IMG/VR virus record: IMGVR_UViG_3300017917_002918
Coordinates: 1 to 64,000 of that record
Direction: 5' to 3' (one strand)
DNA: 64,000 nucleotides
From: a virus
In this document: positions 42 to 39,045 of the stretch, piece by piece
How the letters are laid out: every line of letters begins with the position of its first letter
Numbering within the stretch: the first letter of the stretch is position 1
The notes under the pieces: generated by a model
Seen by the model: the letters and a program-made list of their open reading frames with translations, nothing else
Told to the model about the DNA's origin: nothing
Database searches by the model: none
Translations under genes and position numbers: made by a program

Positions 42-530
42 GTGAATATTTTGGATTTCAATTCAATTAGTGAGTTAGAGAAGTACTTGCTTGCACAAAT
101 CAAGAGTGCAATGGACAAAGAAGTTGCTGCGACAGTAAAGAAAGAACAAAGCAAACAAGTTAAACGGTATTATGACGAATTCGAACCTGATGCATATGAA
201 CGTAGAGGTGACAATAAGGGTTTGTCTGACGTTAGAAATATGAAGCATACTAAACCTAAAATTAATGGTACGCAAATAACCATGACAATAACAAATGATA
301 CAAGGGGTTATTCAAAATTTCATCCTTTTGGTGAGTCTGTAGAGAACCTTGCAGGAATTGTAGAAGAAGGTGGAAGCGCAAATTACAATTATCCATGGGG
401 CAGAAATGCAAAATACTTTTTAAAGCCTAGACCGTTTACAAGCAATACAGTTTATAAATTGATAGAGAATAATGAAATAATTAAAACATTAAAGTCAGCA
501 CTAGCAACACGAGGATTAATCGTTGAATAA
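42..530 (+). CDS. Putative tail/neck component (HK97 gp10-like)
   Basis: 162 aa ORF upstream of the tape measure gene, with a C-terminal 'L..I.E.G...PRPF' motif typical of gp10-like tail proteins. Confidence 0.5.
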   Translation: MNILDFNSISELEKYLLAQIKSAMDKEVAATVKKEQSKQVKRYYDEFEPDAYERRGDNKGLSDVRNMKHTKPKINGTQITMTITNDTRGYSKFHPFGESVENLAGIVEEGGSANYNYPWGRNAKYFLKPRPFTSNTVYKLIENNEIIKTLKSALATRGLIVE

Positions 531-1569
531 GAAAGTTGGTGAAATAATGAGCGAGATGAACGAGATTAACAAAAACATATTAAGAAAACCTGCTAAAAAA
601 GTAGATCCAATATCTAACGCTATGTGGAAACAAATCAATCCAGAAAACAGAGAGTTGGTTGAAGAATTTTTAAAAGTGAATAAACAATTAAGTTCTCAAT
701 CCGTAAAGCAATATATAACTTGTTTGCGTCAATTTTTCTACTATGTATATGAGAACTTAAAAGATAAAGTTTTCTATAAAATTACAAAACGTGACTTTAT
801 GAAGTATATGAGTTATTTGCAAGAAAGAGAGTTATCATCTAGTGCAATTGGAATTAAGAAGTCGGCGGTATCTAGTTTTTGTAACTATATCGAAAATGTT
901 GTTATGGATGATGTTGAAGAATATAAAGGATTTAGAAATTTCACTAGAGGTATGCCAGCAATAGCAAAGAACCAAACATATGAAAAAATAGCAATCAGTA
1001 AAGATGAATATGACATATTAATCGCAGAATTAGAGAAAAGAGAAGATTATTTAGGTTTAGCATGGGTGGCAACCGCTTTTAATGTTGGTAGTCGTAGAGC
1101 AGAAATTATTCAATTCAAAACTGAAATACTAAGTTACCCAATTCCAGAAAATCAAAACTATGTTCTTAGCCATATGGTTAGAGGTAAAGGTAAATCCGTT
1201 GACGGTAAGCCATTGCGTTATATGATAAATATGGATGCATTGAAGTATATGAAGTTATGGGTCGAGAAACGTGGATACGAAAGTGAATACATATTTACAG
1301 TGAAGTATTCAGGTCGAATCAAACATATTGGTACATCATGGGCAAATGACTTTTGTAAAAACACTCTCACACCGATTTTAGGTAGACGAATAAATCCTCA
1401 TTTATTTAAAGCATCTGCAATAACTTTTTTATTGGGTCAAGGTGTAGATTTAAAGATAGTTAGTAAATACGTTGCGCAACATAATGATACCTCCACTACC
1501 TCAAATTTCTATGATTTACGTGACTTTGAGGAAGAAAAAAATAATATATTTTCAAATCATAGTAATTAA
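523..1569 (+). CDS. Tyrosine recombinase within the tail module (similar position to SPbeta YomM)
   Basis: SAM-like N-terminal region; catalytic motifs GSRRAE, GKG, PHLFK, AQH and FY. Confidence 0.8.
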   Translation: MNKKVGEIMSEMNEINKNILRKPAKKVDPISNAMWKQINPENRELVEEFLKVNKQLSSQSVKQYITCLRQFFYYVYENLKDKVFYKITKRDFMKYMSYLQERELSSSAIGIKKSAVSSFCNYIENVVMDDVEEYKGFRNFTRGMPAIAKNQTYEKIAISKDEYDILIAELEKREDYLGLAWVATAFNVGSRRAEIIQFKTEILSYPIPENQNYVLSHMVRGKGKSVDGKPLRYMINMDALKYMKLWVEKRGYESEYIFTVKYSGRIKHIGTSWANDFCKNTLTPILGRRINPHLFKASAITFLLGQGVDLKIVSKYVAQHNDTSTTSNFYDLRDFEEEKNNIFSNHSN

Positions 1570-1658
1570 ATTATAATTTTATAAAAAATAAAAGGAATGT
1601 TTTATTTGGATCATTCCTTTGTTGTTTTATCCATAAACAGAGAGGAGTGATTATTACA

Positions 1659-3472
1659 ATGGCTGAAATACCAAACATTATTGTCGGTGTCAAACTGGAC
1701 ACTTCAAATATAGGTAAACAAGTAGAAGAAATTAGTAAGAAATTTGAAACGAAACCTATTAAGTTAGGTTTTGAATTTAAATTAACAAATGATAATATAA
1801 AACAACAAATGAAAGTCATACAAGACAAATTCGACAATGCAAAAATTAATACAAACATAACTGTTGGTATTAAAGTAGATAGTCGTATTGGCGATATAAA
1901 TAGACAAATTAACCAATTATCAAAACAAATAACCGAGCAATTAAGTGTTAAATTAAAAATAGATGCCAGTGATTTAAATATAATCACTGAAAAAACCAAG
2001 CGAGTCCAAGAACAAGTTCAAATTGCTATGTCACAAAAAAATGTAAAACAAACACCTATATCATATTCTTCTCGTGAATACGAAAGCAGTCTCTTGGGTA
2101 CAAAGAAATCAGATATAGACAAGGCTTTGGATGATGTAATTTCCTCATACAAAGGTAAATTAAGTGACATAAAAGTAAATTTAAATGAAAGCTTGGACAT
2201 TGGTTCAGTAGTTGTTAAATACAAAGATTCAACAGGTAAAATGATTCAAGAAACTATGAAATGGGTGGATGTTGTCGAAGGACAATCCAATAAAGCAAAA
2301 AAAGCATTCAAAACAGTAAGCACCCAAATTGTAGATGACATGAGAAAAGAAGAACAACAAAAAGAAGCAATTCGCAAAAGAGAAGAACAAGAACTTGCGT
2401 CAAGGCAGAAACGTATTGATAAGTTCAAAGATTCTACTTTAAACAGAATTAGTGAAATGGAATCAAAAGATTATAAATACGCTAATCAATTGCGATTTGT
2501 AACCCCAACGAGCCAAGGTAATGTCGAATTAAAAAAAATTAGAAGTGTTGTTGAGGCATTAAATGCATCTACCATATCTTCTAAACAATTCGATAAAGAA
2601 ATTAAAAATATAACAAATAGTATTGATAAGCTTGAAAATAAAGCAATTAAACTTTATAAAGAAATAGATCAAGAGGCTAAAAACGCCACTAGAGGTATAA
2701 AGGCAAGTTTTTCAATAACTCCATTGGGTGATTATAGTACTCCAGGGAAAAAAGCTGGTATACAAAATCCCGCCTCTTTTGAGAAATCAACGGAAGCCAC
2801 AAGAAAATATTTACAATTAATATCACAATTCTCAGGAAAAAAACTCGATTTTGGCATTTTTGAAAGTCAATTCTCTTCGAAACAAATGAAAGAGACTGGT
2901 CAATTGATGACTAACATTGGCGTAAGAGTTTGGCATACAAAAAAAAGATATGAAGATTTAACAGTAAGTTTAAATGATTCTGATAAGTCCTTTAGATATT
3001 TGTCAAAAAGTATAAAAAATGCAGGTTTAAAAGACTTAAACTTTTCAGGGCAATTTATTGAAAACTTAAAGAAATTCCCAATATGGCTAGGTACTGCAAC
3101 AATTGTTATGCAAGGGTTGGCGTTATTTAGAACGGGTGCACAATACATATATGAGATGGATAAAGCATTAACCGATTTGACTAAAGTTGTTGACTTGAGT
3201 ATACCACAAATGCATGAAATGACTAATGCTGCGGTTGCTATGGGTAACGCATACGGTAAATCATCTGTAGAGATAATGAAGTCTATGGCTGAGTTTGGTC
3301 GTGTAACAAAGAATACTGATGAGATTAAGAAATTAACTGAATCTGCTACATTAGCGTCAAATGTAACAACAATGACTGCTGACGTTGCAGCTAAAGCATT
3401 GAATACAACTATGATGGCATTTAAAATAAATGCTAAAGATTCGATGGGAATAGTTGACAAATGGAATGAGTT
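1659..3472 (+). CDS. Tail tape measure protein, exon 1
   Basis: Coiled-coil region followed by a TP901-type TMP core ending DKWNE; RBS GAGGAG precedes ATG 1659; the frame continues in exon 2 after intron removal. Confidence 0.85.
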
Positions 3473-3740
3473 AAAGTTCTCCATAAGTGACTCCTTATAC
3501 AGTAATGTATATGTAAAATGCTAGAGTATCGGAAAAACTCTGTTATTATACAGACAATTCCGAGGTAAACCCTTATTCAAGGGAAACCGTAACGACTGCA
3601 ATTAGCTACCCTACAAAAGAGGGTAAAGGTACAGTCTGAACATCGTAAGCGATTACGAGAAACGGCAGAAATGACCGTTCGCCATAGTACATATGGTCTG
3701 TAACTTAAATTACATATTTAGGTGAAAGTAACAGAATTTG
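3473..3740 (+). ncRNA. Group I intron 1 in the tape measure gene (no ORF)
   Basis: P7 GACTG 3594-3598 pairs with CAGTC 3632-3636; P4-type TCGGAA/TTCCGA; terminal G3740. Removal gives DKWNEL|QNNYRVSSEDLA. The 5' site is uncertain by about 1 nt because P1 is imperfect. Confidence 0.85.
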
Positions 3741-3901
3741 GCAAAACAACTATAGGGTCTCAAGCGAAGATTTAGCAGATTCAATAGGTATTACAGGTAA
3801 CGTTGCACAACAAACTGGAATGTCATTTGAAAAATTAAATGCCATCACAACTGCAATGATCGCAACTACGGGAGCTACGGGAAGTGAAGCGGGAACGGCA
3901 T
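3741..3901 (+). CDS. Tail tape measure protein, exon 2
   Basis: Reads QNNYRVSSEDLADSIGITGNVAQQTGMSFEKLNAITTAMIATTGATGSEAGTA, a typical TMP core; missing from the ORF track. Confidence 0.9.
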
Positions 3902-4203
3902 ATTTCTGTGCCATAACAGCATAATACATAAACTGTTATTCAAAATTTATTCTAATATACGGTGAAACCCTAGCGATAGGCAACACCTTCCAATTTTTAA
4001 TGTTAATTAAAAAGGGAACAACGACTGAACGAATAAACCACATTTATGATGTGGATGCGACAGTCTGAACTTACGCTATAATCTAAAAATGAAACGTAAG
4101 AGTTAGAGTCAAGTGTAACCAGACACTTATTGAAGAACTCTAACCGCCATGTAGCAATATATGGTCAGTAGTCTAATGTAAATTAGATGAAAGTAACAGA
4201 ATG
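3902..4203 (+). ncRNA. Group I intron 2 in the tape measure gene (no ORF)
   Basis: P1 GGCAU/GUGCC with U.G at the splice site; P3 TTTATTC/GAATAAA; P7 GACTG 4023-4027 / CAGTC 4061-4065; terminal G4203. Removal gives GTAL|KSTLSRL. Confidence 0.92.
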
Positions 4204-4415
4204 TAAAATCAACACTTTCAAGACTTTTCCGTATTGGCGAAGAAGGGGCAGACGATGCAGGTAAATCGGAAGAAGCTTTAAACAAACTAGGCATATCTGT
4301 CAGAAAAAACGCAACAGAGTTTCGTAATGCTTCTGACATAGTAGATGATTTGGCTAAAAGATTCAAAACTATGACATCTGTTGAACAAATAGCAATAGCA
4401 CAACAACTTGCGGGT
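4204..4415 (+). CDS. Tail tape measure protein, exon 3
   Basis: Reads (L)KSTLSRLFRIGEEGADDAGKSEEALNKLGISVRK...IAIAQQLAG, in frame with exons 2 and 4. Confidence 0.9.
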
Positions 4416-5062
4416 TAATAATATGGCTCGAAAATACAGTAATGTATCGTTGAAGTTGGCTTTTATCGGGAAACACGTAGACATACGCAATTCCGAGGAT
4501 AAGACTTGATGAATAATCAAGAATCCGTAACGAGTCAGTGATTGTAACAGCAATGTTATGATCCACGCCAACCCCCTATATAATAGGGAGTGACCAATAT
4601 TTGCTAATTATATGGTCAAATATACTCATATATAAGCAAACGTAAAGCTCCGCATATAGAGAAATCTGTATGTAGAAATAGATGACGTATAACAATCTAT
4701 TCAATATCTCAACAACTGCTGGCAATCCCTAAAGCTAACTAAACCACAACGTAAGTATGAAACAAGACTAAGCGTGAGGGTGACGAAAGTAGAAAAAATT
4801 AGTTAGATAGTGCATGGTTAAATCCTAAACACTGTAATAATGGGTCTTCAGCAACATATGTCCGAACAGGATACTGCTCAACGACTATCCCTCTTGAGGG
4901 GAGTAGAGTCAAGCGACTCGAAATGAGAGACTCCAGAAATGGATGATGATATAGTCTGTGCTCATATGAAAGTATGAGAAGTTCATAAGAGAACTGGTGT
5001 AGATTAGCGACCTACATTGAACACGCTAAAAATATATCAAATGTGTATATTTTTATTTATTC

Positions 5063-5092
5063 AAAAAACATCAAGAATTATTCTTGATGTTT
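5063..5092 (-). terminator. Intrinsic terminator of the RHH transcript
   Basis: Inverted repeat ACATCAAGAA/TTCTTGATGT; a U-run follows only on the minus strand. Confidence 0.6.
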
Positions 5093-5236
5093 GGATGCAA
5101 AGTCTTTAAGAACAGTAATTATTAAATTATTAAAACTTCGATTTTGCTCTTTAGCTATTTGTTCTAATTGTTGTTTTAGTTCTTTTGAAATTGTAATATT
5201 GGTGCGTGTGTTGTGTTCAGCTACATTACCTGCCAT
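5078..5236 (-). CDS. Ribbon-helix-helix (Arc/CopG-like) protein, 52 aa, inside the IStron
   Basis: MAGNVAEHNTRTNITISKELKQQLEQIAKEQNRSFNNLIITVLKDF...; RBS AAGGAGG; upstream TTGACT-17-TATAAT on the minus strand; below the ORF-track cutoff. Confidence 0.8.
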   Translation of the reverse strand: MAGNVAEHNTRTNITISKELKQQLEQIAKEQNRSFNNLIITVLKDFASKHQE

Positions 5237-5302
5237 AACAATCCCTCCTTTTAAAATTATTATATCATATTAACACATTGTAGTCAATTAGATCCCAAAC
5301 TA

Positions 5303-5334
5303 TTGACAAACTGATTACAGTATGGTATGATAAT
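5303..5334 (+). promoter_or_regulatory. SigA-type promoter of tnpB, divergent from the RHH promoter
   Basis: TTGACA at 5303 followed by TGGTATGATAAT. Confidence 0.65.
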
Positions 5335-5357
5335 GTTAGAAAGTGAGGTGAGAAAAT

Positions 5358-6509
5358 ATGATTAAAGGAATCACAATTAGACTACACCCAGATGAAAAAC
5401 AAGAACAATTATTATGGAAACATGTTAACTGTGCTAGATTTGTTTGGAATTATGGTTTGCGATTACAACAAGAAAGATTCAAAAATAAGGAAAAACATCT
5501 AAGTGGATATGATTTGAGAAAAGAAATTATAGCCTTGAAGAAAACAGATGATTTTATATGGCTAAATGAGATTTCAAGTCATACAACATTTAATATTTGC
5601 TTAGACTTAGATGGTGCTTATGGTAGATTTTTCAAAAAGGTAACTGGCAAACCAAAATTCAAAAAGAAAAACAGGTGCAAAAATAGTTTCCCAGTAAGAC
5701 AAGATAATTTGTATTTTAAAAATAATTGTGCTGTAGTTGAAAAAATCGGTAAAATCAAATATCAATCGGACTATAAAATACCACAAGGCAGGTTTGTTTA
5801 TAAGTTTAGTAATCCAAGAATTAAGTTTGAGAACAACAAATGGATTATGACGATTGGTATGGAGTACGAGAACCAAGTACATAATTTAACCGATAAGAAA
5901 ATGGGAATAGATTTAGGAGTAAAAGAATTAGCTGTAGTATCCTTTGGAACTGAAAATATAGTTTTTAAAAATATCAATAAGACAAAGAGAGTTAAAACCT
6001 TAAAACATAAACTTAAACATCTACAGAAAGATGTTAATAGAAAATATGAAACCAATAATAAAAACAAGGTTTATGATAAAAAGTGGTCTAAGTCTAATGG
6101 TATAAAAAAACTAGAAAATCAGATAAAGGATATACATTGTAAACTATCAAATATTCGTAAGAACCACATTCATCAAAGCACTAATAGTCTCGTCAAGTTA
6201 TTGCCATATAAGATAACAATGGAAGACTTAAATATTAGTGGAATGATGAAAAACAGGCATCTATCTAAAGCAATAGCAGAACAATGTTTATATGAGTTCA
6301 CAAGACAAATTAAATATAAATGTGAATTTAATGGTATAGAATTTGTGCAAGTAGACAGATTTTATCCATCAAGTAAAACATGCTCTTGTTGTGGAAGCTT
6401 AAAGAAGGACTTAAAGCTAAAAGATAGAGTTTATAAGTGCAATTGTGGATTAGAAATTGATAGAGATTATAATGCGGCTATTAATTTAATGAATTATTCA
6501 AACGTTTGA
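5358..6509 (+). CDS. tnpB: TnpB RNA-guided endonuclease (IS607/IS605 OrfB)
   Basis: N-terminal HTH (IRLHP..EQ..L...ARFVWN); RuvC motifs GIDLG, MEDL and DRDYNAA; Zn finger CSCCG..CNCG; catalytic D/E/D intact. Confidence 0.95.
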   Translation: MIKGITIRLHPDEKQEQLLWKHVNCARFVWNYGLRLQQERFKNKEKHLSGYDLRKEIIALKKTDDFIWLNEISSHTTFNICLDLDGAYGRFFKKVTGKPKFKKKNRCKNSFPVRQDNLYFKNNCAVVEKIGKIKYQSDYKIPQGRFVYKFSNPRIKFENNKWIMTIGMEYENQVHNLTDKKMGIDLGVKELAVVSFGTENIVFKNINKTKRVKTLKHKLKHLQKDVNRKYETNNKNKVYDKKWSKSNGIKKLENQIKDIHCKLSNIRKNHIHQSTNSLVKLLPYKITMEDLNISGMMKNRHLSKAIAEQCLYEFTRQIKYKCEFNGIEFVQVDRFYPSSKTCSCCGSLKKDLKLKDRVYKCNCGLEIDRDYNAAINLMNYSNV

Positions 6510-6680
6510 AATATTGAGAGACGTTTGTCTTAGGGAAATTGGTGTATCCTTGAATGTTGCGGAGTGTTATATCAAATGAAAGTAGGTTTAACCGAAATCA
6601 GACACTATGAAACAACGAATAAATAAAAATGTACCCAAATGTGTATATTTTTAGCATCAGAAGATGGACTCTGAACTACA
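6510..6680 (+). ncRNA. Putative omegaRNA: element right end plus a guide from the flanking outer-intron sequence
   Basis: About 150 nt between the tnpB stop and the element end at 6660; by the established TnpB rule the guide is the 3' flank AAGATGGACTCTGAAC... Confidence 0.6.
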
Positions 6681-6779
6681 CTATAATGTAAACAAGAAGG
6701 TGTAGAAGTGGCAGAAATGACCACTCGCCATAATGCTTATGGTCTGTAACTTTGGTAACAAAGTGAAAGTAACAGAATG

Positions 6780-9700
6780 ACATACCATTACTCCAAGCTA
6801 ATCGGTGTACTTAACAATTATGATGTTGCACTAGAAGCAAATAAAATGCAATTACACTCACAAGGTTCTGCTTATTCCGAGAACCAGAAAAGAATGGATT
6901 CATTTGAGGGCAGGTTGGGAAAACTTAAAACAACTGTAGAAAGTTTCTGGAATTCTTCTATTAATTCAGACCTATTCAAAGGCATGATTTCTGGTTTAAC
7001 TGTTTTAATAGATAAGTTCGGTAATCTTGGGACTGTGTTATCGTTGATAGGCACTGGTTTAGCTCTTTGGAAAGGAAATGAAATTTTAAGTTTCTTCAAA
7101 ACCCTTCCTGCTTCAATTTCAACATCTATTAAAGAGATGACATTGTTTAAAAACATTGCTCTTGCCATGGAATTACGAGAATTGGGATTATTGACAACCA
7201 CTCAGCTATTAAGTAGTAGTTTCAAAGCTTTAGGTATTTCTATAAAAAATGCATTCTTATCTAATCCATTAGGCTGGATTGCAATGGGTTTTACGGCTGT
7301 TACAATGGCAGTGGATATGTTTGGTCAAAAAGCTGAAGAATCTAAGCAACAAATCAAGGATAGTATAGAAGCATATAAATCACTAAATACCGAAGTAGAT
7401 TCGCTTACTGCAACATACATAGAGATTGGAGATAAGTGGAAGACTGATAATGACGAAAAGAAAAAATTAATTGAAACAGAGACTAGACTCAAAGAGATAT
7501 TCGGAGAATCTGCAAAAGCATTAAATTTACAGACCGGAACAGTTGATGATAATATAAAGAAGTTTAAAGAACTAAAAGCGATTAAAGATGCTGAATTTTT
7601 GTTAGAAAACAAAACAAAAATAAACAATGCGAAAGATAGACTTTCGAGCTACAAGTCTGAGAGCTTTTTCTCGGATTCTCCAGCCGACACTTTGAATTTA
7701 GCTCCCGAGTTGTTAGGAAAAATATTTGCGGGCAATCCAAAACAAGTTTTAGCTCAATTAGAATCAGAATTAGCGTTGTTGGGAAAGAGACTTGACGAAG
7801 TTAAAGCAAAGGGAACTCCATTCGATGTGAACCAATACTCGTATTCTTTTGACTTAGTTAATGCCAAAATAAAAGAATATAAAGAAAATATCAAACCTGA
7901 TACCGATTTACTGGAACAGGCAGATCAAAAAGAAAAAGCTATTGCAGAAACTAAAATACTAAATCTTGATAAATTAAATGAAAAACAAACAGCAGTATAT
8001 ACTAATTTAAAAAATTTTGTAAAGTATAGTAATGCAGATCAATATCAAAAAGACTTACAACAAGTTCAGGTTATACTCTCTAGTTTTGATGGTAAAAATG
8101 TAGCAGAGGTTGAGCAACAACTTAGAGCAATAGCAAACTTACCAAATAAAGACATAGAAACAGTAATGAAATCTCTTGCCGATGGTACTTATAAATCTGG
8201 TAAATCTGCCGAAGAATCAAAAAAGGCAGAAGAAGAATTAAATAAAACAATATCAAATTCAATTAACAACATACAAACATTAAACTCTGCGCAGGATGAA
8301 TTAAATGAGAATCATAAGTTATCTACACAAACATTAGAATCAGTTGCAAATAAGTACCCTGAACTGTTGGCTTATATGAATGACGAAGTTCTGATGAGTC
8401 AAAAAATCCAAGAAAAAATAAAACAAGAAAAAGATGATTATGTTGATGCTAGTTATAAAAAAATAGAATCTAACCAAAGTTTTTTTGATAATGTCATCAA
8501 AAACGACAAAGAACTGTGGAGTACTTTAAGTGATGCTTATGGGGATGATTTAAAAAACTTTAAGTCATTAGAGGATGCAAAATTAGAGATAGATAACGAA
8601 ATATCTGCACAAATACTTACTAATTGGATGCAATTAGATGCAACGACAAAAGAAATAATGAGAACCAACATTGACCTGTTGGGGGAAGCGTTAGGATCAG
8701 ATGTCCCTAATGGGCAAGATTCATACGATTTGGCAATGAAAGCATCTACTGGAATGATGAAGGCTGGAGCAACAGAAGATGATGTCGCAAAGGCTGTCGA
8801 TAGTGGAGCTGCTTTAAAAGTAAATAAAATGAAAAAGGCACTCGATACCGCTAAAGCAAAAACAGATGAAATTTTTAGAAATGCTAATTTTGGAGACGGT
8901 AGAAAAAGTAGTGGTTCTACTAGTGCTGGTTCTTCTTCCCCAGCCATCAATGAAGAGGTATACAAAGTAGAAAAAGACCGTTACATGGGTTTAAATCAAG
9001 TTTTAACCTCAGTTAATAATTCGTTAGAAAAGAATCAAGCATTACAGAAAAATGCTACTATTGAAGAACGCGTTAAGTTAATAGCAGAAGAAATTGAACT
9101 GCTACGACAAAAACGCAAAGCTATTAATGACATTGCATGGGAACAAAGTCAGGAAGCAAAAGAGAAAAAGGCTTACCTTGAAAAGAATAATGTTAAATTT
9201 GATCAAAACGGTAACATTGACAAGGCATCCTACGACAGTGTAATTGACTCTATAGCCAACAACACAGAATCAATGAAACGTAAGGGTAATGCTACAAAAA
9301 TTGCTGAAAATAATCAACTCTTGAAAAATCTAGAACAGGCTAATAAAGATTACTTGAGTGCTACTGCTAATGCTGCAAAGAGTATCAATGAACGTGAAAG
9401 TTTAACTGGTGATATATTCGCTAAGCAAAATGATAAGACTAAAGCCGAGATAGAATCCGTACTTGCACCACTAGGGGAACACTTAACTGATTTGAATGAT
9501 CAGTTAACAGGACTGCAAAGTAAATATGATCTATTGGGTGAAAGTGAATTCGATTCAAAGATTGAGAATATTAATAAGCAAATAGTTAATCAAAAACTTG
9601 CATTAATTGATACTGATAAAGCGTTGTCTGAGCTAAGAGCTAAATACAATAAACAAGATACCAATGCCATTGAAAAAAAGGAAATACTAAAAGAAATTGT

Positions 9701-11690
9701 AAAGCTTGAAAATGATAGCCTTAGTATAAAAAAAACAATGGTTGCATTAGGTGATAAGCGAGCGGATCAGTTAAAAGAAGATACAGAAAAGGCACTTAAT
9801 GAAAAAGATTTAGCCATTGAGAAAATTGGAGAAATAGAAACAGAAGGTCAAATTGCAAAAAAAATTAGTTTAATCAAAGAAAAGATATCTGCGAGAACTG
9901 GTTATATAGATGAAGTAAATGCATATACGAAACGATTGGAATACAACAAAGAAAATGAAAAGTCAGATATATTTGTTTCACAAAACTCTACGGGCGCAAA
10001 ATATTTAAAAGAACTTCCAGCTATGCAAAAAGCAAATGCTAATGATTTAAAAGAAATTAATACTTTAAATCTTGAACTTGCTAAGAAACAAGTTGAAAAG
10101 TTCGATCTTGCCCTTGAAGAATTAAGTGCTACTACCAGTAAGTTTAAAGAAGAGTTGGACTTCTTAAAAGAATGGCAACCACAGAACTTTGAATCTATAA
10201 ACACATTGATTAGTGGTGTAATCACTAATACTCAGGCAGAAATTAATCAATTAAAGACTATGGAAACTTCCTATATCGCCAAACGTGATCAAGCTAGACA
10301 AGATGGTGACATAGAATCTTTTAAATTGTTTGATGACTTGTTGAAAAAGACATATCAAAATGAACAAAATAAGATCATGGAAAACGCCAAGTTGAAGAAG
10401 GAACAACTTCAAAACTCATTCTCTGAGCAGAATAGAAACATTGAAAAATTGCTATTTGGTGATTCTTCGCAAAAAGCAGAGCAAGATAGAATCAATTCAT
10501 TAAAAAAAGAACAAGACACCTACATTTCTGGCGAAGAAAAAGTGTATGCGTTAAATTTAATGCGAACGGAACTCAATAAATACAATAGTGACATACAGAA
10601 TAAAAAGATAACAATATATGATGCAGAATTAGATAGACTAGAAAAAATTGATAAAATAACTCGTGATGATCTAGATACTTTGAAGAAGAAAATTGAAATA
10701 AAACAACTTGAGTTAAAATTAGATAATTTGAGAGAAGAAAAGACAATTAAGGTTTTAAGAAAGCAAGCTGATGGTAAGTATGCTTGGAAATTTGAAGCAG
10801 ATCAAGGTGCAATCAACGAAACAGAGAGTCAACTAGCTTCTAGTAGAATCGATCTAATTAAAACTCAAAAAGACAAAAGTATCAAAGCACAAGAGGATGA
10901 TCTTAATCAAAAAATTGATTATATGAACGAAGTTAAGGAAATACAACAAAAAGCCTTAAACGGTGAATACAAAACGCAGGAAGAGTTCACGGCTGACATG
11001 ACTAGAGTTAATGGTAAATTAAGTACGAATTATAAAAATATGTGGTTTGGTATAACTTCAACTCAAGCAAATGCTTCTGTTCTAATGAATGATTATCAAA
11101 GTAATATTGTAACTTCTTATGCTACATTTACAACTAGCATGAAAGAACTTTCGGCTAGCTTATCTGAATCTGTACAGAATTCTGCAAACGCATTACTTAA
11201 TTCTGTTGCACAATTAGAAGAACTGGCTAGACGTGCTGAGGCTGCAAGGGCTACGATTACTGGTCAGGCTATGGTATCATTCACAGGAGGTTCTATAAAA
11301 AATGGCGTTCCTCAACCAGAAAATAGACCCTCTTCTAGTGCAAATATAAACACAACACTTAAAAATGCATGGACTAACATACAGGGTTATCATGCTGACG
11401 GGATAGAATCAGGAGCGGTAACTAAAAATGGAACATATATGTTACATGGATCTGAGTCTTCTCCTGAATGGGTGTTAACAACAGAACAAATGAAAACATT
11501 TATACGAAATATGGCTTCTAAAGCTTCATCTTCATTTACGATCAAGAAACCATTAGCACCTTCATTTTATAATAGTGGTGATACTTCCAATGTTAAATCT
11601 GAAGTGTACAGTTTTAACATTGATACAATTCAGACCAATGATGTTACTAACTTAATTAATAGTATGAAAAGAAAGATTAGATCTAATTAA
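6780..11690 (+). CDS. Tail tape measure protein, exon 4
   Basis: TMP core continuation, hydrophobic segments (NPLGWIA), long coiled coil, C-terminal HGS...PEWVLT motif. The four exons total 7098 nt from ATG 1659 (2365 aa). Confidence 0.92.
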   Translation, partial: TYHYSKLIGVLNNYDVALEANKMQLHSQGSAYSENQKRMDSFEGRLGKLKTTVESFWNSSINSDLFKGMISGLTVLIDKFGNLGTVLSLIGTGLALWKGNEILSFFKTLPASISTSIKEMTLFKNIALAMELRELGLLTTTQLLSSSFKALGISIKNAFLSNPLGWIAMGFTAVTMAVDMFGQKAEESKQQIKDSIEAYKSLNTEVDSLTATYIEIGDKWKTDNDEKKKLIETETRLKEIFGESAKALNLQTGTVDDNIKKFKELKAIKDAEFLLENKTKINNAKDRLSSYKSESFFSDSPADTLNLAPELLGKIFAGNPKQVLAQLESELALLGKRLDEVKAKGTPFDVNQYSYSFDLVNAKIKEYKENIKPDTDLLEQADQKEKAIAETKILNLDKLNEKQTAVYTNLKNFVKYSNADQYQKDLQQVQVILSSFDGKNVAEVEQQLRAIANLPNKDIETVMKSLADGTYKSGKSAEESKKAEEELNKTISNSINNIQTLNSAQDELNENHKLSTQTLESVANKYPELLAYMNDEVLMSQKIQEKIKQEKDDYVDASYKKIESNQSFFDNVIKNDKELWSTLSDAYGDDLKNFKSLEDAKLEIDNEISAQILTNWMQLDATTKEIMRTNIDLLGEALGSDVPNGQDSYDLAMKASTGMMKAGATEDDVAKAVDSGAALKVNKMKKALDTAKAKTDEIFRNANFGDGRKSSGSTSAGSSSPAINEEVYKVEKDRYMGLNQVLTSVNNSLEKNQALQKNATIEERVKLIAEEIELLRQKRKAINDIAWEQSQEAKEKKAYLEKNNVKFDQNGNIDKASYDSVIDSIANNTESMKRKGNATKIAENNQLLKNLEQANKDYLSATANAAKSINERESLTGDIFAKQNDKTKAEIESVLAPLGEHLTDLNDQLTGLQSKYDLLGESEFDSKIENINKQIVNQKLALIDTDKALSELRAKYNKQDTNAIEKKEILKEIVKLENDSLSIKKTMVALGDKRADQLKEDTEKALNEKDLAIEKIGEIETEGQIAKKISLIKEKISARTGYIDEVNAYTKRLEYNKENEKSDIFVSQNSTGAKYLKELPAMQKANANDLKEINTLNLELAKKQVEKFDLALEELSATTSKFKEELDFLKEWQPQNFESINTLISGVITNTQAEINQLKTMETSYIAKRDQARQDGDIESFKLFDDLLKKTYQNEQNKIMENAKLKKEQLQNSFSEQNRNIEKLLFGDSSQKAEQDRINSLKKEQDTYISGEEKVYALNLMRTELNKYNSDIQNKKITIYDAELDRLEKIDKITRDDLDTLKKKIEIKQLELKLDNLREEKTIKVLRKQADGKYAWKFEADQGAINETESQLASSRIDLIKTQKDKSIKAQEDDLNQKIDYMNEVKEIQQKALNGEYKTQEEFTADMTRVNGKLSTNYKNMWFGITSTQANASVLMNDYQSNIVTSYATFTTSMKELSASLSESVQNSANALLNSVAQLEELARRAEAARATITGQAMVSFTGGSIKNGVPQPENRPSSSANINTTLKNAWTNIQGYHADGIESGAVTKNGTYMLHGSESSPEWVLTTEQMKTFIRNMASKASSSFTIKKPLAPSFYNSGDTSNVKSEVYSFNIDTIQTNDVTNLINSMKRKIRSN

Positions 11691-11785
11691 ATTTAATATA
11701 TTTGATATTTTTTTATATAAAATGTAGAACTTTTGTAAATAATAGTATATAATCTTGAGACATTAATTTATTGGAGGTTATTGTT

Positions 11786-13210
11786 ATGAAAAAGTTCTAC
11801 ATTTTATTTGCAATTTTAGTGTCGATGTTGTCTATGAGTACTTCTACATTTGCACAAGGTAATGAAGAAATAAAAGTATTTGTAAAGGGGTTACAATTAA
11901 AGTTCGATGTTCCACCACAAATGCAAAATGGTAGGACATTGGTTCCGTTAAGGGTAATATTTGAAGCATTAGGAGCACTGGTAGATTGGAATGATTCAAC
12001 ACAAACAATAACAGGAATAAAAGAAAATACTAAGATTATTTTGAAGCTAAACAGTACAACAGTAACAGTAAACGATAATGTAATTACACTTGATGTACCT
12101 GCTACAACAGTAAATGGGAGAACTTTAGTACCAGTTCGTTTTATATCTGAAGCTTTGGGCATGGATGTCAAATGGGATGATAAAGAAAAAAAAGTAATTA
12201 TTGACAATAATATGGGTGGTACTTCTACTGATCGAGTGTCAGTAAGTAAAGAAGTATATACAACAGGTGTTGTAAAAATTATTGATGGTGATGCGTTTAC
12301 CTTAAACTCAGACAAAACTACAACTATCGAGTTTAAAAATGGCGATAAGTATGTTGGCGAGATAAACAGTGACAATAAACCACATGGCAAAGGTACTTAT
12401 TCTTATAATTCAATCGGACGAGTATATACAGGTGAATTTGCGAATGGCGTAAGAAATGGATATGGTGTGTCTGAATATGTTTCAGGTGAACGTAAAGGGA
12501 ATAAATATGAGGGATACTTCCTTAATGATATTGCACATGGTAAATGTAAGTATTCACAAGCAGACGGATTGAAATATGTAGGAGATATATTAAATGACAA
12601 GTTTACAGGTGATGGAGAAATGACATACCCTGATGGATCAATTTATAAGGGACAATTTTTAAATGACTCACCAGATGGTCAAGGAACTTATATTTTTGAA
12701 GATGGTAGTAAATATGTTGGTGAATGGAAAAGGGGCAACAGAGAAGGAAGTGGAACTTTCACAACTACAGATCATGTTTATATAGGTGAATGGAAAAATG
12801 ATAAAGCAAACGGCTCTGGTATATTAACTTATGCTAATGGTGTGAAGCTTATCGGTGAATTTAGAGACAACCAATACATTACTACGCAAGGTGGCAATAA
12901 TCTTACACCTACAACTACAAATACAAACAAACCAAGCACTAATACAACCACTACTACAAATACAACTCCGCCAGTAAACACAGCTTTTTTAGCTGAACAA
13001 AAGAGACAATTTGAACAAGCAATATCGGATATTCAAACACAAATAGCAAATGCACAAAACGAAAAGTCAGCAAAGGTTTTGGTAACTGCACCTGATGGCA
13101 CGAGTAAGTGGGAATTTCAAGCCGACCAGAGAATTATTCAACCATTACAAGAAAGACTCAAAGCAAAACAGAATGAATATAATTTATGGAAAGCTGCGAA
13201 TGGACAGTAA
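11786..13210 (+). CDS. Exported moron protein: signal peptide, copper-amine-oxidase N-terminal-like domain, MORN repeats, Thr-rich linker, TMP-like C-terminal segment
   Basis: MKKFYILFAIL..STFA signal; GRTLVPLR and GRTLVPVRFISEALG motifs; repeated YxGxWxNxxxxGxG; own AT-rich promoter region and terminator. Confidence 0.85.
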   Translation: MKKFYILFAILVSMLSMSTSTFAQGNEEIKVFVKGLQLKFDVPPQMQNGRTLVPLRVIFEALGALVDWNDSTQTITGIKENTKIILKLNSTTVTVNDNVITLDVPATTVNGRTLVPVRFISEALGMDVKWDDKEKKVIIDNNMGGTSTDRVSVSKEVYTTGVVKIIDGDAFTLNSDKTTTIEFKNGDKYVGEINSDNKPHGKGTYSYNSIGRVYTGEFANGVRNGYGVSEYVSGERKGNKYEGYFLNDIAHGKCKYSQADGLKYVGDILNDKFTGDGEMTYPDGSIYKGQFLNDSPDGQGTYIFEDGSKYVGEWKRGNREGSGTFTTTDHVYIGEWKNDKANGSGILTYANGVKLIGEFRDNQYITTQGGNNLTPTTTNTNKPSTNTTTTTNTTPPVNTAFLAEQKRQFEQAISDIQTQIANAQNEKSAKVLVTAPDGTSKWEFQADQRIIQPLQERLKAKQNEYNLWKAANGQ

Positions 13211-13290
13211 TTGGATATTTTGATTTTAACAACGCTTTATAGTACTATCTCTTCCTCATCTTTAACAATATAACAATTTGCAAATTGCAA

Positions 13291-13326
13291 TAAGACTACG
13301 ATTTATAGCATAGTCTTATTTTTTTA
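13291..13326 (+). terminator. Intrinsic terminator after the moron gene
   Basis: TAAGACTA...TAGTCTTA hairpin followed by a T-run. Confidence 0.7.
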
Positions 13327-13358: not shown

Positions 13359-14474
13359 ATGGCTATATATAGTCCAGTGGCTTTAGTACCAAACAACACA
13401 GCAATATTACACACCGCAAATAACGTGTTCACTTGGGAAAACTCAGGTGACGTACAGACACACTATCAAATTAAAATATATAAAAATAGTGACAATAGTC
13501 TAATTTATGATTCAACTAAATTGGCTTCATCAAATCCACAACACACCCTTACATCTGGTACATTGAGCAATGCAGAAACATGTAAATGGCAAGTAACAGC
13601 ATACTCGAATTTGTTGAGTGCCAAGAGTAGTTGGTATTTATTTTACACAGCTTCGCTTCCTACGGTAACAATTTCATCAACACCTAGTAACAATCAAACA
13701 TGGACATTTGATGCAATATATAGCTCTGCACAAAATATACCTGTTAAAACTTATAGATACTATTTATATAATGCTTCAACACCTACTGTTGCAATTGGTG
13801 ATTCAGGTGAACTATATCCTATTACATTAGTTACGAACTCCTCTACCCCACTTACTCATACGTTTGATGGTATGCTGAGTGAGCAAACTTATTCAGTTAA
13901 GTGTGTGGTTGTAAATCAACAGGATGTAACAGTAGAAAGTGGATTATCAACATTTACTGTTAATTACAATTATCCTCCTCCAATACCAAAATTGACAGTT
14001 ACACCAGACAATGAATTTGGAATAATGCGATTAAATTGGTCTAAATTAAAGCAAATATTACCTGTTGTTGGTGGAACACAAGATTATGATTATGTTCAAG
14101 GTAAATGGAATTACGGAATAAAGGTTAATGTAGGTACTACCATTACATATACAGAACCAATACCAGAAGATTACACTTTATATTTTTGGGTAAAGTTTCC
14201 GACAGGTTACACGGGTGATGTATTAAAGTTTAATAAAAACACTAATACAGGTATGCGAATATTCTTCACAGGTAATCAATTCGGATTTGAGCTTGATAAT
14301 GTGATAACAATAGGGCGAATGATTGAAACGTTACATCCGAGTGATACATTAGCACCGAGTGACACATTATTTATGACAGGAGGTAACATATTAGAAAATT
14401 GGGTGATCTTGGGTATTAAACATGGCGAATTACTTATTAAAGGTGAAGATTTTGAGGAAATATTAACATTATAG
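13359..14474 (+). CDS. Tail/baseplate protein with Fn3/Ig-like domains
   Basis: Beta-rich sequence (FTW..YQIKIY..WQV); position after TMP; PSDTL repeat. Confidence 0.6.
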   Translation: MAIYSPVALVPNNTAILHTANNVFTWENSGDVQTHYQIKIYKNSDNSLIYDSTKLASSNPQHTLTSGTLSNAETCKWQVTAYSNLLSAKSSWYLFYTASLPTVTISSTPSNNQTWTFDAIYSSAQNIPVKTYRYYLYNASTPTVAIGDSGELYPITLVTNSSTPLTHTFDGMLSEQTYSVKCVVVNQQDVTVESGLSTFTVNYNYPPPIPKLTVTPDNEFGIMRLNWSKLKQILPVVGGTQDYDYVQGKWNYGIKVNVGTTITYTEPIPEDYTLYFWVKFPTGYTGDVLKFNKNTNTGMRIFFTGNQFGFELDNVITIGRMIETLHPSDTLAPSDTLFMTGGNILENWVILGIKHGELLIKGEDFEEILTL

Positions 14475-38121: not shown

Positions 38122-39045
38122 ATGTTAGATTCATTACCTAGTTATGTTGAGAATTATTTTAATTATATGACAACAATCAAAGCCAAGTCTTTTAACACCA
38201 ATCATTGTTACAGATATGATTTAATTGAGTTTTTTAATTATATGAATAACAATATTCTGTTAAATAAACTTGAACGATTAGATATGATTGTGATTGATGA
38301 TTTGAAAAGTCTTGAATTGACTGATTTTTATAATTATATCTTATATCTCAAAGCCAATAATAACCTGAAGAGTTCATCGGCAAATAGAAAATTAGCATCC
38401 ATAAAGTCACTTTTTAACTATTTATGTAACAAGGAAAAATTACTAGAAACAAATGTTACAAAAGAATTAACATACTCTCTTTTGCCAAGAAAAATACCAA
38501 TATACTTAACTCTAGAGGAGTCTAAAACACTATTGAAGTCTGTAACTGGTAAAAATAGTGAAAGGGATTTTGCTATTTTGTTACTATTTTTAACAAGCGG
38601 TATAAGGCTGTCTGAGCTTATTAATATAAAAATGAATGATATTAAGAATGATTTATTAATTGTGACTGGAAAAAGCGATAAGGAAAGAACCATACCACTG
38701 AATAAGTCATGTATTGTTGCTATTGATGAGTATTTAAAAATAAGAAGCAAACTAAATGTCAAAACAGATATATTGTTTGTTACAATTAGAAAAACTAAAA
38801 TGAGTCCAGATTCAATTCAACTATTGATGAAAAAGTATTTAAAATTATCAGAACTAAGTAACAAGTACTCGCCACATAAACTTAGACATACAGCAGCCAC
38901 TTTGATGTACAAGCAGAATGTTGATATAATCGCTCTAAAAGAATTATTAGGGCATGAGTCTATACAAACTACAGCTATATATACTCATACTGATGTCAAA
39001 AACATAAAGGATGCCCTAGATGGACACCCCTTGAACAAGAAATAA
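38122..39045 (+). CDS. XerC/XerD-like tyrosine recombinase (possible multimer resolution)
   Basis: GIRLSEL, TGK..KER, PHKLRHT, LLGH and TAIYTH motifs. Confidence 0.92.
   Translation: MLDSLPSYVENYFNYMTTIKAKSFNTNHCYRYDLIEFFNYMNNNILLNKLERLDMIVIDDLKSLELTDFYNYILYLKANNNLKSSSANRKLASIKSLFNYLCNKEKLLETNVTKELTYSLLPRKIPIYLTLEESKTLLKSVTGKNSERDFAILLLFLTSGIRLSELINIKMNDIKNDLLIVTGKSDKERTIPLNKSCIVAIDEYLKIRSKLNVKTDILFVTIRKTKMSPDSIQLLMKKYLKLSELSNKYSPHKLRHTAATLMYKQNVDIIALKELLGHESIQTTAIYTHTDVKNIKDALDGHPLNKK

What the first reader, a model, noticed from the sequence alone, without database searches (positions are those of the whole stretch)
11786..13210. Exported moron protein ends in a copy of a tape measure segment: candidate TMP-mimic superinfection exclusion
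Seen: the gene directly after TMP has its own promoter region, RBS and terminator. It encodes a signal peptide, a Cu-amine-oxidase-N-like domain, MORN repeats and a Thr-rich linker. Its C-terminus EKSAKVLVTAPDGTSKWEFQADQ (13061-13129) aligns without gaps to TMP EKTIKVLRKQADGKYAWKFEADQ (10737-10805), 12/23 identical, with coiled-coil flanks in both. Known: TMP is ejected into the cell envelope during DNA entry, and some superinfection-exclusion morons (e.g. streptococcal Ltp) act on TMP. Inference: a surface-displayed TMP fragment could be a dominant-negative decoy that poisons TMP channel assembly or occupies its host partner. I do not know of this architecture being described.
Basis: partly seen in the sequence, partly recalled or inferred. 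Interest (0 to 1): 0.85.

Follow-up and report, generated by a model that had tools for sequence, protein, structure and literature searches.

The report
Exported phage protein with tape-measure module
An extra gene inserted after the tape measure gene of a 167-kb phage encodes an exported, probably wall-binding protein whose last 75 residues are truly related to a conserved tape-measure segment, so it may block DNA entry by rival phages, though this is untested.

Summary
Gene 11786-13210 encodes a signal peptide, a Cu_amine_oxidN1 domain, seven MORN repeats, a Thr/Asn linker and a 75-residue C-terminal domain (CTD).

- **Homology:** the CTD matches tape measure protein (TMP) residues 1295-1369 (BLASTP 16/46, E 3e-5; ungapped score 81 against a shuffle maximum of 54). 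A profile built only from 80 foreign TMP modules finds just two ORFs in the whole phage: its TMP (3e-24) and this CTD (1e-14).
- **Not a recent copy:** the module is a conserved helix-hairpin-helix unit about 160-560 residues from the C-end of about 80 TMP representatives. The adjacent TMP ranks 52nd of 81 as the nearest module.
- **Family:** seven other exported proteins with different N-terminal domains end in the same module. All seven with readable context, this gene included, sit in mobile-element settings.
- **Insertion:** in two related phages the TMP gene is followed by the homolog of window gene 13359, directly in one and after a 94-aa ORF in the other. The 474-aa gene is therefore an insertion (a moron).
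- **Function:** a TMP-mimic exclusion role is plausible (about 0.35) but untested.

This scan has noted analogous exported TMP look-alikes on other DNA; those notes are unchecked.

The parts
11786..13210 (+). Inserted accessory gene (474 aa) for the exported Cu_amine_oxidN1-MORN-linker-TMP-like CTD protein
   Evidence: ORF and RBS; Pfam; shown to be an insertion by synteny with L015 and L014
11748..11777 (+). TATAAT (11748-11753) and GGAGG RBS (11773-11777) upstream of the ATG
   Evidence: Read from the sequence. The promoter scan is not above chance, so promoter status is uncertain.
11786..11854 (+). Sec-type signal peptide, residues 1-23, cleavage motif TFA|QG
   Evidence: Read from the sequence. 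The family members read in full show comparable N-terminal signals. No predictor was run.
11882..12202 (+). Cu_amine_oxidN1 domain (PF07833), probable cell-wall-binding module
   Evidence: Pfam E 1e-39; genome search E 4.4e-42. The same domain fills the C-terminal position of an annotated endolysin and is listed among predicted wall-binding modules in 10.64898/2026.09.23.753664.
12338..12880 (+). MORN repeat array: seven units plus a partial eighth
   Evidence: Pfam PF02493 E 4.6e-35; pattern scan; beta-hairpin array in the AF2 model
12881..12982 (+). Thr/Asn-rich low-complexity linker, residues 366-399
   Evidence: Sequence; pLDDT below 50 at residues 367-397 in the model
12983..13207 (+). 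C-terminal TMP-like module: helix, beta-hairpin (13070-13120), helix
   Evidence: BLASTP; shuffles; TMP-only HMM E 1.1e-14; AF2 pLDDT 89; best BFVD matches are TMP pieces at rmsd about 2 A
13290..13326 (+). Terminator-like hairpin (9-bp stem) followed by a T-run, before the next tail gene
   Evidence: RNA fold centroid; sequence
10659..10883 (+). The homologous module inside the TMP, residues 1295-1369 of the 1637-aa C-terminal piece, 268 residues from its end
   Evidence: TMP-only HMM E 3e-24
6777..11690 (+). TMP gene, last and largest coding piece
   Evidence: phrog_4211 positions 840-1727; C-terminal TMP motifs aligned with other TMPs
1647..3524 (+). TMP gene, first coding piece
   Evidence: phrog_4211 positions 165-720; TIGR01760 E 3.3e-13
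13359..14474 (+). Conserved tail gene that follows the TMP gene in related phages, directly in L015 and after a 94-aa ORF in L014
   Evidence: 33% identity, E 3e-21 to the gene after TMP in L015; E 1e-7 in L014

Best explanation
The gene is a moron inserted between the tape measure gene and the next tail gene of a large, apparently sheath-less phage. Its product is exported by Sec. It is probably held in the Gram-positive wall by its Cu_amine_oxidN1 and MORN part. On a flexible Thr/Asn tether it carries a 75-residue helix-hairpin-helix module homologous to a conserved module of TMPs.

The most likely role is envelope-level exclusion of phages whose TMP carries this module. The tethered module would either associate with the matching module of an incoming, ejected TMP, or occupy the envelope partner which that module normally contacts. 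Either way, DNA-entry channel formation would fail.

Shown: homology, module fold, probable export signal, insertion, and the mobile-element distribution of the family. Inferred: wall anchoring, any binding, and any exclusion phenotype.
For: - Homology is firm. A profile of exported CTDs alone also retrieves TMPs, with P0127 at E 3e-9.
- The module is the best-conserved stretch of the TMP C-terminal 500 residues. It sits about 160-560 residues from the C-end in about 80 representatives, including the TMP of Clostridium phage D-1873 (E 2e-21).
- Eight exported proteins with different N-domains (Cu_amine_oxidN1, LRR+MORN, CARDB, fn3, DUF5780) keep the same C-terminal module after a low-complexity linker.
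- All seven with readable context are in mobile-element settings: directly after a TMP gene (this window and L004), in a phage accessory region (L003), next to an integrase and HTH regulator (P0082), next to serine recombinases (P0041, P0145), and next to a NikA-like gene (P0032).
- Synteny shows the gene is an insertion.
- Cu_amine_oxidN1 occupies the wall-binding position of an annotated endolysin.
- There is precedent for exported exclusion factors. The cited CwpV paper summarises that Ltp escape mutations map to the TMP and reports that the CwpV C-terminal domain stops infection after adsorption, most likely at DNA injection (PMC4737114; PMC3952083, listed and not read).
Against: - There are no functional data of any kind.
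- The CTD is not closest to its own TMP. It ranks 52/81 overall, and its two helices rank 43 and 81. Homotypic co-assembly therefore lacks support.
- The rank-1 cognate in the P0117/L003 pair is not specific.
- Conserved residues could reflect folding constraints of a self-associating hairpin unit rather than a shared partner.
- The gene is co-oriented with late tail genes and its own promoter is unproven, so early or prophage expression is not shown.
- The phage's lifestyle is unknown, although it encodes three tyrosine recombinases.
- There is no match in PADLOC.
- An earlier analogous case in this scan was later rated low for the bold reading.
Confidence: 0.35

Rival explanations
1. The module is only a self-association (oligomerisation) tail borrowed from a TMP. 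The function lies in the N-terminal wall-binding, MORN, LRR or fn3 domains, for example surface remodelling, adhesion or receptor masking, and involves no interaction with any TMP.
For: - The monomer model is a helix-hairpin-helix with antiparallel helices.
- The weak best PDB match is prefoldin, whose hairpins build oligomers (prefoldin's architecture is from my own knowledge).
- N-domains vary while the tail is constant.
- The CTD is not matched to the cognate TMP.
- The same phage encodes a second exported Cu_amine_oxidN1-only protein without the tail.
Against: - Seven of seven known contexts are mobile elements, and two lie directly after a TMP gene.
- Hairpin residues conserved across TMPs are kept in the exported set.
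- Among 1.84 billion representatives, the search found the module in no chromosomal surface protein.
Confidence: 0.3
2. The protein serves the phage's own cycle rather than exclusion. For example, it might bind wall debris after lysis so that progeny are not wasted on it, or prime or modify the wall for release.
For: - The gene is co-oriented with the late tail genes and placed inside the tail cluster.
- It carries a wall-binding-type domain.
- From my own knowledge, T5 Llp is a precedent for protecting progeny.
Against: - The gene is absent from the related tail clusters L014 and L015, so it is not a core function.
- Other family members lie outside tail clusters, on small recombinase or primase elements.
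Confidence: 0.1
3. The protein is a virion or tail-assembly component that joins the TMP through the shared module, and the N-terminal hydrophobic segment is not a cleaved signal peptide.
For: The gene is adjacent to the TMP gene and shares a TMP module.
Against: - Canonical Sec signals with A-x-A sites occur in the members read in full.
- The domains are of extracellular type.
- The gene is missing in the related tail clusters.
- Members occur on non-phage elements.
Confidence: 0.05
4. The resemblance is a chance or compositional match between two coiled-coil regions.
For: - Both regions are helical and Lys/Glu/Gln-rich.
- The hairpin alone weakly resembles PQQ beta-propeller blades, which produced spurious multi-repeat hits.
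Against: - The ungapped score is 81 against a shuffle maximum of 54.
- The independent TMP-only HMM gives E 1.1e-14, with only two hits in 1210 six-frame ORFs.
- The exported-only profile finds TMPs.
Confidence: 0.01

Closest known systems
Ltp of Streptococcus thermophilus phage TP-J34 (superinfection exclusion lipoprotein; PMC3952083, and summary in PMC4737114)
   Same: It is a phage-encoded protein exported to the outer face of a Gram-positive cell. It acts on DNA injection, and escape mutations map to the TMP.
   Different: Ltp is a lipoprotein with helix-turn-helix-like repeat domains that is thought to bind the TMP. The protein here has a type I signal, no lipobox, a wall-binding-type domain and a module homologous to the TMP itself. 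It would therefore be a mimic rather than a binder of unrelated fold. Ltp lies in the lysogeny module, not after the TMP gene.
CwpV of Clostridioides difficile (PMC4737114)
   Same: It is a wall-anchored surface protein of a clostridial host, with an N-terminal wall-binding part and a C-terminal part that carries the antiphage activity. It stops infection after adsorption, most likely at DNA injection, and is strongest against siphophages.
   Different: CwpV is host-encoded and phase-variable. It is anchored by CWB2 repeats, and its C-terminal domain consists of 79-120-residue tandem repeats. No CWB2 or such repeats are present here, and no TMP homology has been reported for CwpV.
HK97 gp15 moron (Cumby et al. 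2012 and 2015, cited in PMC11364771)
   Same: It is a moron in a siphophage, and its product blocks TMP-dependent genome entry.
   Different: From my own knowledge, gp15 is a small inner-membrane protein of a Gram-negative host with no TMP homology. Its sequence was not compared here.
The conserved helix-hairpin-helix module of long TMPs, including Clostridium phage D-1873
   Same: The CTD is a sequence homolog (E 1.1e-14) with the same predicted fold. BFVD TMP pieces match at rmsd about 2 A.
   Different: The protein is not a TMP. It lacks TIGR01760/PhageMin_Tail and the C-terminal TMP motifs, and it has a signal peptide and extracellular domains.

Membership tests
Moron (extra gene inserted in a conserved phage gene order, with its own signals) | Absent from the same position in related phages | tested here: met
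   In L015 the TMP gene is followed directly by the homolog of window 13359-14474. In L014 the same homolog follows after a 94-aa ORF.
Moron (extra gene inserted in a conserved phage gene order, with its own signals) | Own terminator | tested here: met
   A 9-bp hairpin at 13290-13319 plus a T-run appears in the fold centroid. It is AT-rich, so the GC-based scan missed it.
Moron (extra gene inserted in a conserved phage gene order, with its own signals) | Own promoter | tested here: inconclusive
   There is a TATAAT at 11748-11753 with a weak -35. Promoter-like sites are not above the shuffle expectation.
TMP helix-hairpin-helix module (not in Pfam or NCBIfam) | Significant match to a profile built from TMP modules only | tested here: met
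   E 1.1e-14, 50 bits. The fold is H-E-E-H at pLDDT 89.
Tail tape measure protein | TIGR01760/PF10145 core and C-terminal TMP motifs | tested here: not met
   Pfam and NCBIfam find only Cu_amine_oxidN1 and MORN, plus weak sub-threshold hits, in the 474-aa protein.
Cu_amine_oxidN1 (PF07833) | Score above the Pfam gathering cut-off | tested here: met
   135.3 bits against a cut-off of 24.2
MORN repeat (PF02493) | Score above the Pfam gathering cut-off, with several repeats | tested here: met
   117.8 bits against a cut-off of 22.5; seven units by pattern
Ltp-type Sie lipoproteins | Lipoprotein signal with lipobox cysteine | tested here: not met
   The signal ends STFA|QG with no cysteine.
Ltp-type Sie lipoproteins | Blocks DNA injection, with escape mutations in the TMP | not testable with these tools
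   This needs a host, phages and plating assays.
CwpV-type wall protein | CWB2 anchoring repeats and C-terminal tandem repeats | tested here: not met
   No CWB2 or similar family appears in the Pfam scan.
Known defence-system proteins (PADLOC-DB) | Match to any PADLOC model | tested here: not met
   Zero families for seven exported family members
Prefoldin-like fold | Coiled-coil helices joined by a beta-hairpin that oligomerises | tested here: inconclusive
   Foldseek best PDB hit is 2zdi_C, at E 0.57, TM 0.62 and rmsd 10.7. VIA-align gives only generic helical hairpins at Z up to 9.4.

The most novel reading that the evidence does not exclude
Exported proteins that display a module taken from tape measure proteins are a distinct class of anti-phage exclusion factor carried by phages, plasmids and other mobile elements of Firmicutes. 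Tethered in the wall, the module poisons or out-competes the same module of an incoming TMP, so that the DNA-entry channel never forms. This scan's unchecked notes of analogous look-alikes in unrelated phage groups would then mean that the strategy arose several times.
Probability: 0.25. Interest if true: 0.85.

Novelty: new variant of a known kind. Interest (0 to 1): 0.6.

Why it matters
TMP function during DNA entry in Gram-positive hosts is poorly understood, and very few exclusion proteins have a known target. This work defines a conserved TMP module, absent from Pfam and NCBIfam, together with a small family of exported mobile-element proteins that carry it. That gives a concrete, testable handle on two questions. 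The first is what this TMP segment contacts in the envelope. The second is whether molecular mimicry of an ejected phage protein is used for exclusion. If true, it would add a mechanism (a decoy of the injection protein) to the known receptor-masking and TMP-binding types. It would also offer a sequence rule for predicting which phages a given element excludes.

Tried and rejected
- **Complex prediction:** No heteromer test exists.
- **Pattern scans:** The search for related loci with the CTD profile found nothing in viral contigs or genome contigs.
- **Isolated phages:** BLAST of the gene, of the TMP module and of the TMP C-terminal 496 aa against isolated phages gave no match. A more typical TMP fragment (P0022) matched 72 isolated-phage records. 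Only the Clostridium phage D-1873 match spans the module region; every other listed match covers only the later C-terminal part.
- **Word-indexed search:** the CTD region found only the protein itself among proteins of similar length.
- **Spurious hits:** hits with 5-12 short stretches are PQQ/beta-propeller repeats and were set aside.
- **Solved structures:** no solved structure is related by sequence. A weak PrgI-like stretch (E 0.3) was treated as chance.
- **Other structure searches:** the ESM Atlas search and VIA-align gave only generic helical hairpins. The full-length single-sequence model was poor (pLDDT 54).
- **Gene conversion:** recent conversion from the adjacent TMP is rejected (73/139 nt identical; 9 of 16 identical residues share a codon).
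- **P0082 and TMP P0147:** the idea that they come from one prophage could not be established, because their gene orders differ.
- **Other limits:** relatives of a virus record cannot be drawn, and L003 is not in a held record.

Full report
**Setting**

The window is the first 64 kb of a 167,401-bp IMG/VR virus record with direct terminal repeats and about 31% G+C. No sheath family (PF04984) is found in the genome.

The tape measure gene is long and in several coding pieces:
- Piece 1 (1647-3524) matches phrog_4211 positions 165-720 and TIGR01760.
- The last piece (6777-11690, 1637 aa) matches phrog_4211 positions 840-1727.
- Two short pieces lie between them.

The phage is therefore probably a very long-tailed siphovirus.

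**The gene**

ATG 11786 lies 8 nt after GGAGG, and the stop is at 13208-13210. The 474-aa product has these parts:

| Residues | Feature | Evidence |
|---|---|---|
| 1-23 | Typical Sec signal, ending TFA\|QG | read from sequence |
| 33-139 | Cu_amine_oxidN1 | E 1e-39, |
| 189-345 | Seven MORN units, plus a partial eighth | |
| 366-399 | Thr/Asn-rich linker, disordered in the model | |
| 400-474 | C-terminal domain (CTD) | see below |

With a six-row alignment, AlphaFold2 models the CTD as helix, beta-hairpin, helix at mean pLDDT 89. A 9-bp hairpin plus T-run follows at 13290-13326. The upstream promoter is only a TATAAT with a weak -35 and is not above chance.

**Is the resemblance to the TMP real?**

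Yes.
- BLASTP gives 16/46 identities without gaps, E 3e-5.
- The ungapped score is 81, against a mean of 36, sd 4 and maximum 54 for 300 shuffles.
- A two-row profile searched against 1.84 billion representatives found 143 proteins. These fall into two classes.
  - Proteins with 5-12 short stretches are PQQ-type beta-propellers that match only the hairpin motif. They are spurious.
  - Eighty-eight proteins match at least 45 profile columns in one stretch.
- About 80 of these are TMP-like. They are long, with the module about 160-560 residues from the C-end and modes near 265-280 and 163-170. Several carry PF10145 or lysin domains and sit in tail clusters.
- The module is the best-conserved stretch of the TMP C-terminal 500 residues.
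- An HMM built only from 80 foreign TMP modules was searched against all 1210 six-frame ORFs of this phage. It hits exactly two: the TMP (3e-24) and the CTD (1.1e-14).
- The same HMM finds the module in the TMP of Clostridium phage D-1873 (2e-21).
- Neither Pfam nor NCBIfam covers the module.

**A family of exported proteins**

Seven further proteins end in the same module. The members read in full have signal peptides and a low-complexity linker before the module.

| Protein | N-terminal domains | Context |
|---|---|---|
| this gene | Cu_amine_oxidN1 + MORN | directly after the TMP gene |
| P0015 | Cu_amine_oxidN1 | directly after the 3' end of a TMP gene (L004) |
| P0032 | Cu_amine_oxidN1 | next to a weak NikA-like gene |
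| P0145 | DUF5780 + Cu_amine_oxidN1 | followed by a serine recombinase gene |
| P0117 | LRR + MORN | 58-kb phage contig, among accessory genes 4.4 kb upstream of the TMP gene |
| P0041 | CARDB | 6.3-kb element with a resolvase and an AEP primase |
| P0082 | two fn3 | beside an integrase and an HTH regulator |
| P0142 | fragment | contig too short to read context |

All seven readable contexts are thus mobile elements. The TMP-only HMM scores six of these CTDs at 8.8e-18 to 6.7e-5; P0032 and P0082 had no DNA and were not in that search.

**Moron status**

In L015, whose TMP (P0016) is a sister of this phage's TMP, the gene that starts 80 nt after the TMP gene is the homolog of window 13359-14474 (33% identity, E 3e-21). 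In L014 the same homolog follows the TMP gene after a 94-aa ORF (E 1e-7). The 474-aa gene is therefore an insertion.

**Relation to the adjacent TMP**

The CTD is not a recent copy of the adjacent TMP.
- Over the whole module the own TMP ranks 52nd of 81 TMP modules. It ranks 13th in the core and 6th in the hairpin. For the two helices it ranks 43rd and 81st.
- The nearest sequence overall is the exported P0015, at 41% identity.
- In the hairpin, the best TMP match is P0016, from the own TMP's clade. The CTD and the own TMP also share a Phe at a column where 72 of 81 TMPs have Tyr. The score margins are small, however.
- DNA identity is 73/139, with no sign of conversion.
- On a short-alignment tree, six exported CTDs group together (SH-aLRT 94) beside the TMPs L003TMP and P0024. 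P0082 pairs with TMP P0147 (95). This window's CTD sits on a long branch elsewhere.
- For P0117 the cognate TMP ranks first, but the same TMP is near the top for most exported CTDs. Covariation is therefore not shown.

**What the parts suggest**

Cu_amine_oxidN1 fills the C-terminal, wall-binding position of an annotated endolysin next to a holin in a Syntrophomonadaceae phage. A preprint on Paenibacillus hydrolases also lists it among predicted wall-binding modules (10.64898/2026.09.23.753664). The phage encodes a second exported protein made of this domain alone.

The layout is therefore a signal peptide, a wall binder, a MORN array, a flexible tether and then the TMP module. That layout would hold the module in the envelope zone that an ejected TMP must cross.

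Published precedents for exported exclusion factors acting at this step are:
- Ltp, with TMP escape mutants, and CwpV, whose C-terminal domain is active after adsorption (PMC4737114; PMC3952083, listed and not read).
- The HK97 gp15 moron, as cited in PMC11364771.

Literature searches found no description of an exported protein carrying a TMP-derived module. PADLOC has no match.

**Verdict**

| Claim | Confidence |
|---|---|
| The CTD and the TMP module are homologous | > 0.95 |
| The gene is an exported accessory insertion | about 0.85 |
| It excludes phages by TMP mimicry | about 0.35 |
| The tail is only an oligomerisation unit (main rival) | about 0.3 |

Structure searches do not discriminate between the last two. 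BFVD matches are TMP pieces at rmsd about 2 A. The PDB gives only a weak prefoldin match and generic helical hairpins.

This scan has noted analogous exported TMP look-alikes in other, unrelated genomes. Those are unchecked AI notes, and one was later rated low for the bold reading. I used them as context, not as evidence.

Noticed in passing
window 1647-11690: The TMP gene is in at least four coding pieces: 1647 to about 3480, about 3735-3905, about 4200-4415, and about 6790-11690. They are separated by intervening sequences of about 250 nt, 290 nt and 2.37 kb. The last holds a TnpB ORF (5358-6509) and a RAGATH-18 RNA (6556-6618, 61.9 bits). The Rfam group I intron model gave no hit even at E<=1. 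Earlier first-reader notes of this scan propose a group I twintron/IStron here.
   Followed up: partly
G000:C1:106618-106938 (-), outside the window (L013 1489-1932): The same phage encodes a second exported protein (147 aa) consisting only of a signal peptide and a Cu_amine_oxidN1 domain (E 1.6e-30). It lies next to HTH-type regulator genes and lacks the TMP-like tail.
   Followed up: partly
window 523-1566 and 38122-39045; G000:C1:131738-132235: The phage encodes three tyrosine recombinase genes (PF00589; the best is 128.7 bits at 38.5 kb). One lies immediately upstream of the first TMP piece. This may point to a temperate or plasmid-prophage lifestyle, which was not established.
   Followed up: no
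L005 and L006: The two 6.3-kb contigs that carry P0041 (signal peptide, CARDB, TMP-like CTD) are circular permutations of the same gene set: a 62-aa ORF, a resolvase, 207-aa and 147-aa ORFs, and an AEP-type primase. This suggests a small circular element.
   Followed up: no
L016 (Clostridium phage D-1873, ACSJ01000012.1), ORF residues 1356-1422: The TMP-like ORF of this isolated Clostridium phage carries the same helix-hairpin-helix module (E 2e-21 with the TMP-only HMM). It was the only isolated-phage record in which I confirmed the module.
   Followed up: partly
CTD helix 2 of the exported family, e.g. L004 1018-1242: The C-terminal helix motif (YDSKLSEYNIWKA type) weakly resembles the C-terminal helix of the type III secretion needle protein PrgI (E 0.3). 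This is probably chance.
   Followed up: no
window 13070-13120 and 10746-10796: The hairpin motif (DG-x-x-x-W-x-F/Y) resembles blades of PQQ-type beta-propellers. Profile searches with the module therefore pick up propeller proteins through many weak repeated stretches, which is a trap for anyone re-running the search.
   Followed up: yes
window 13359-14474; L015 4922-6055; L014 14660-15688: The gene that normally follows the TMP gene in this phage group is a roughly 370-aa protein with an N-terminal Ig/fn3-like domain (PF25788, E 2.5e-6). It may be the distal tail protein of these phages.
   Followed up: partly
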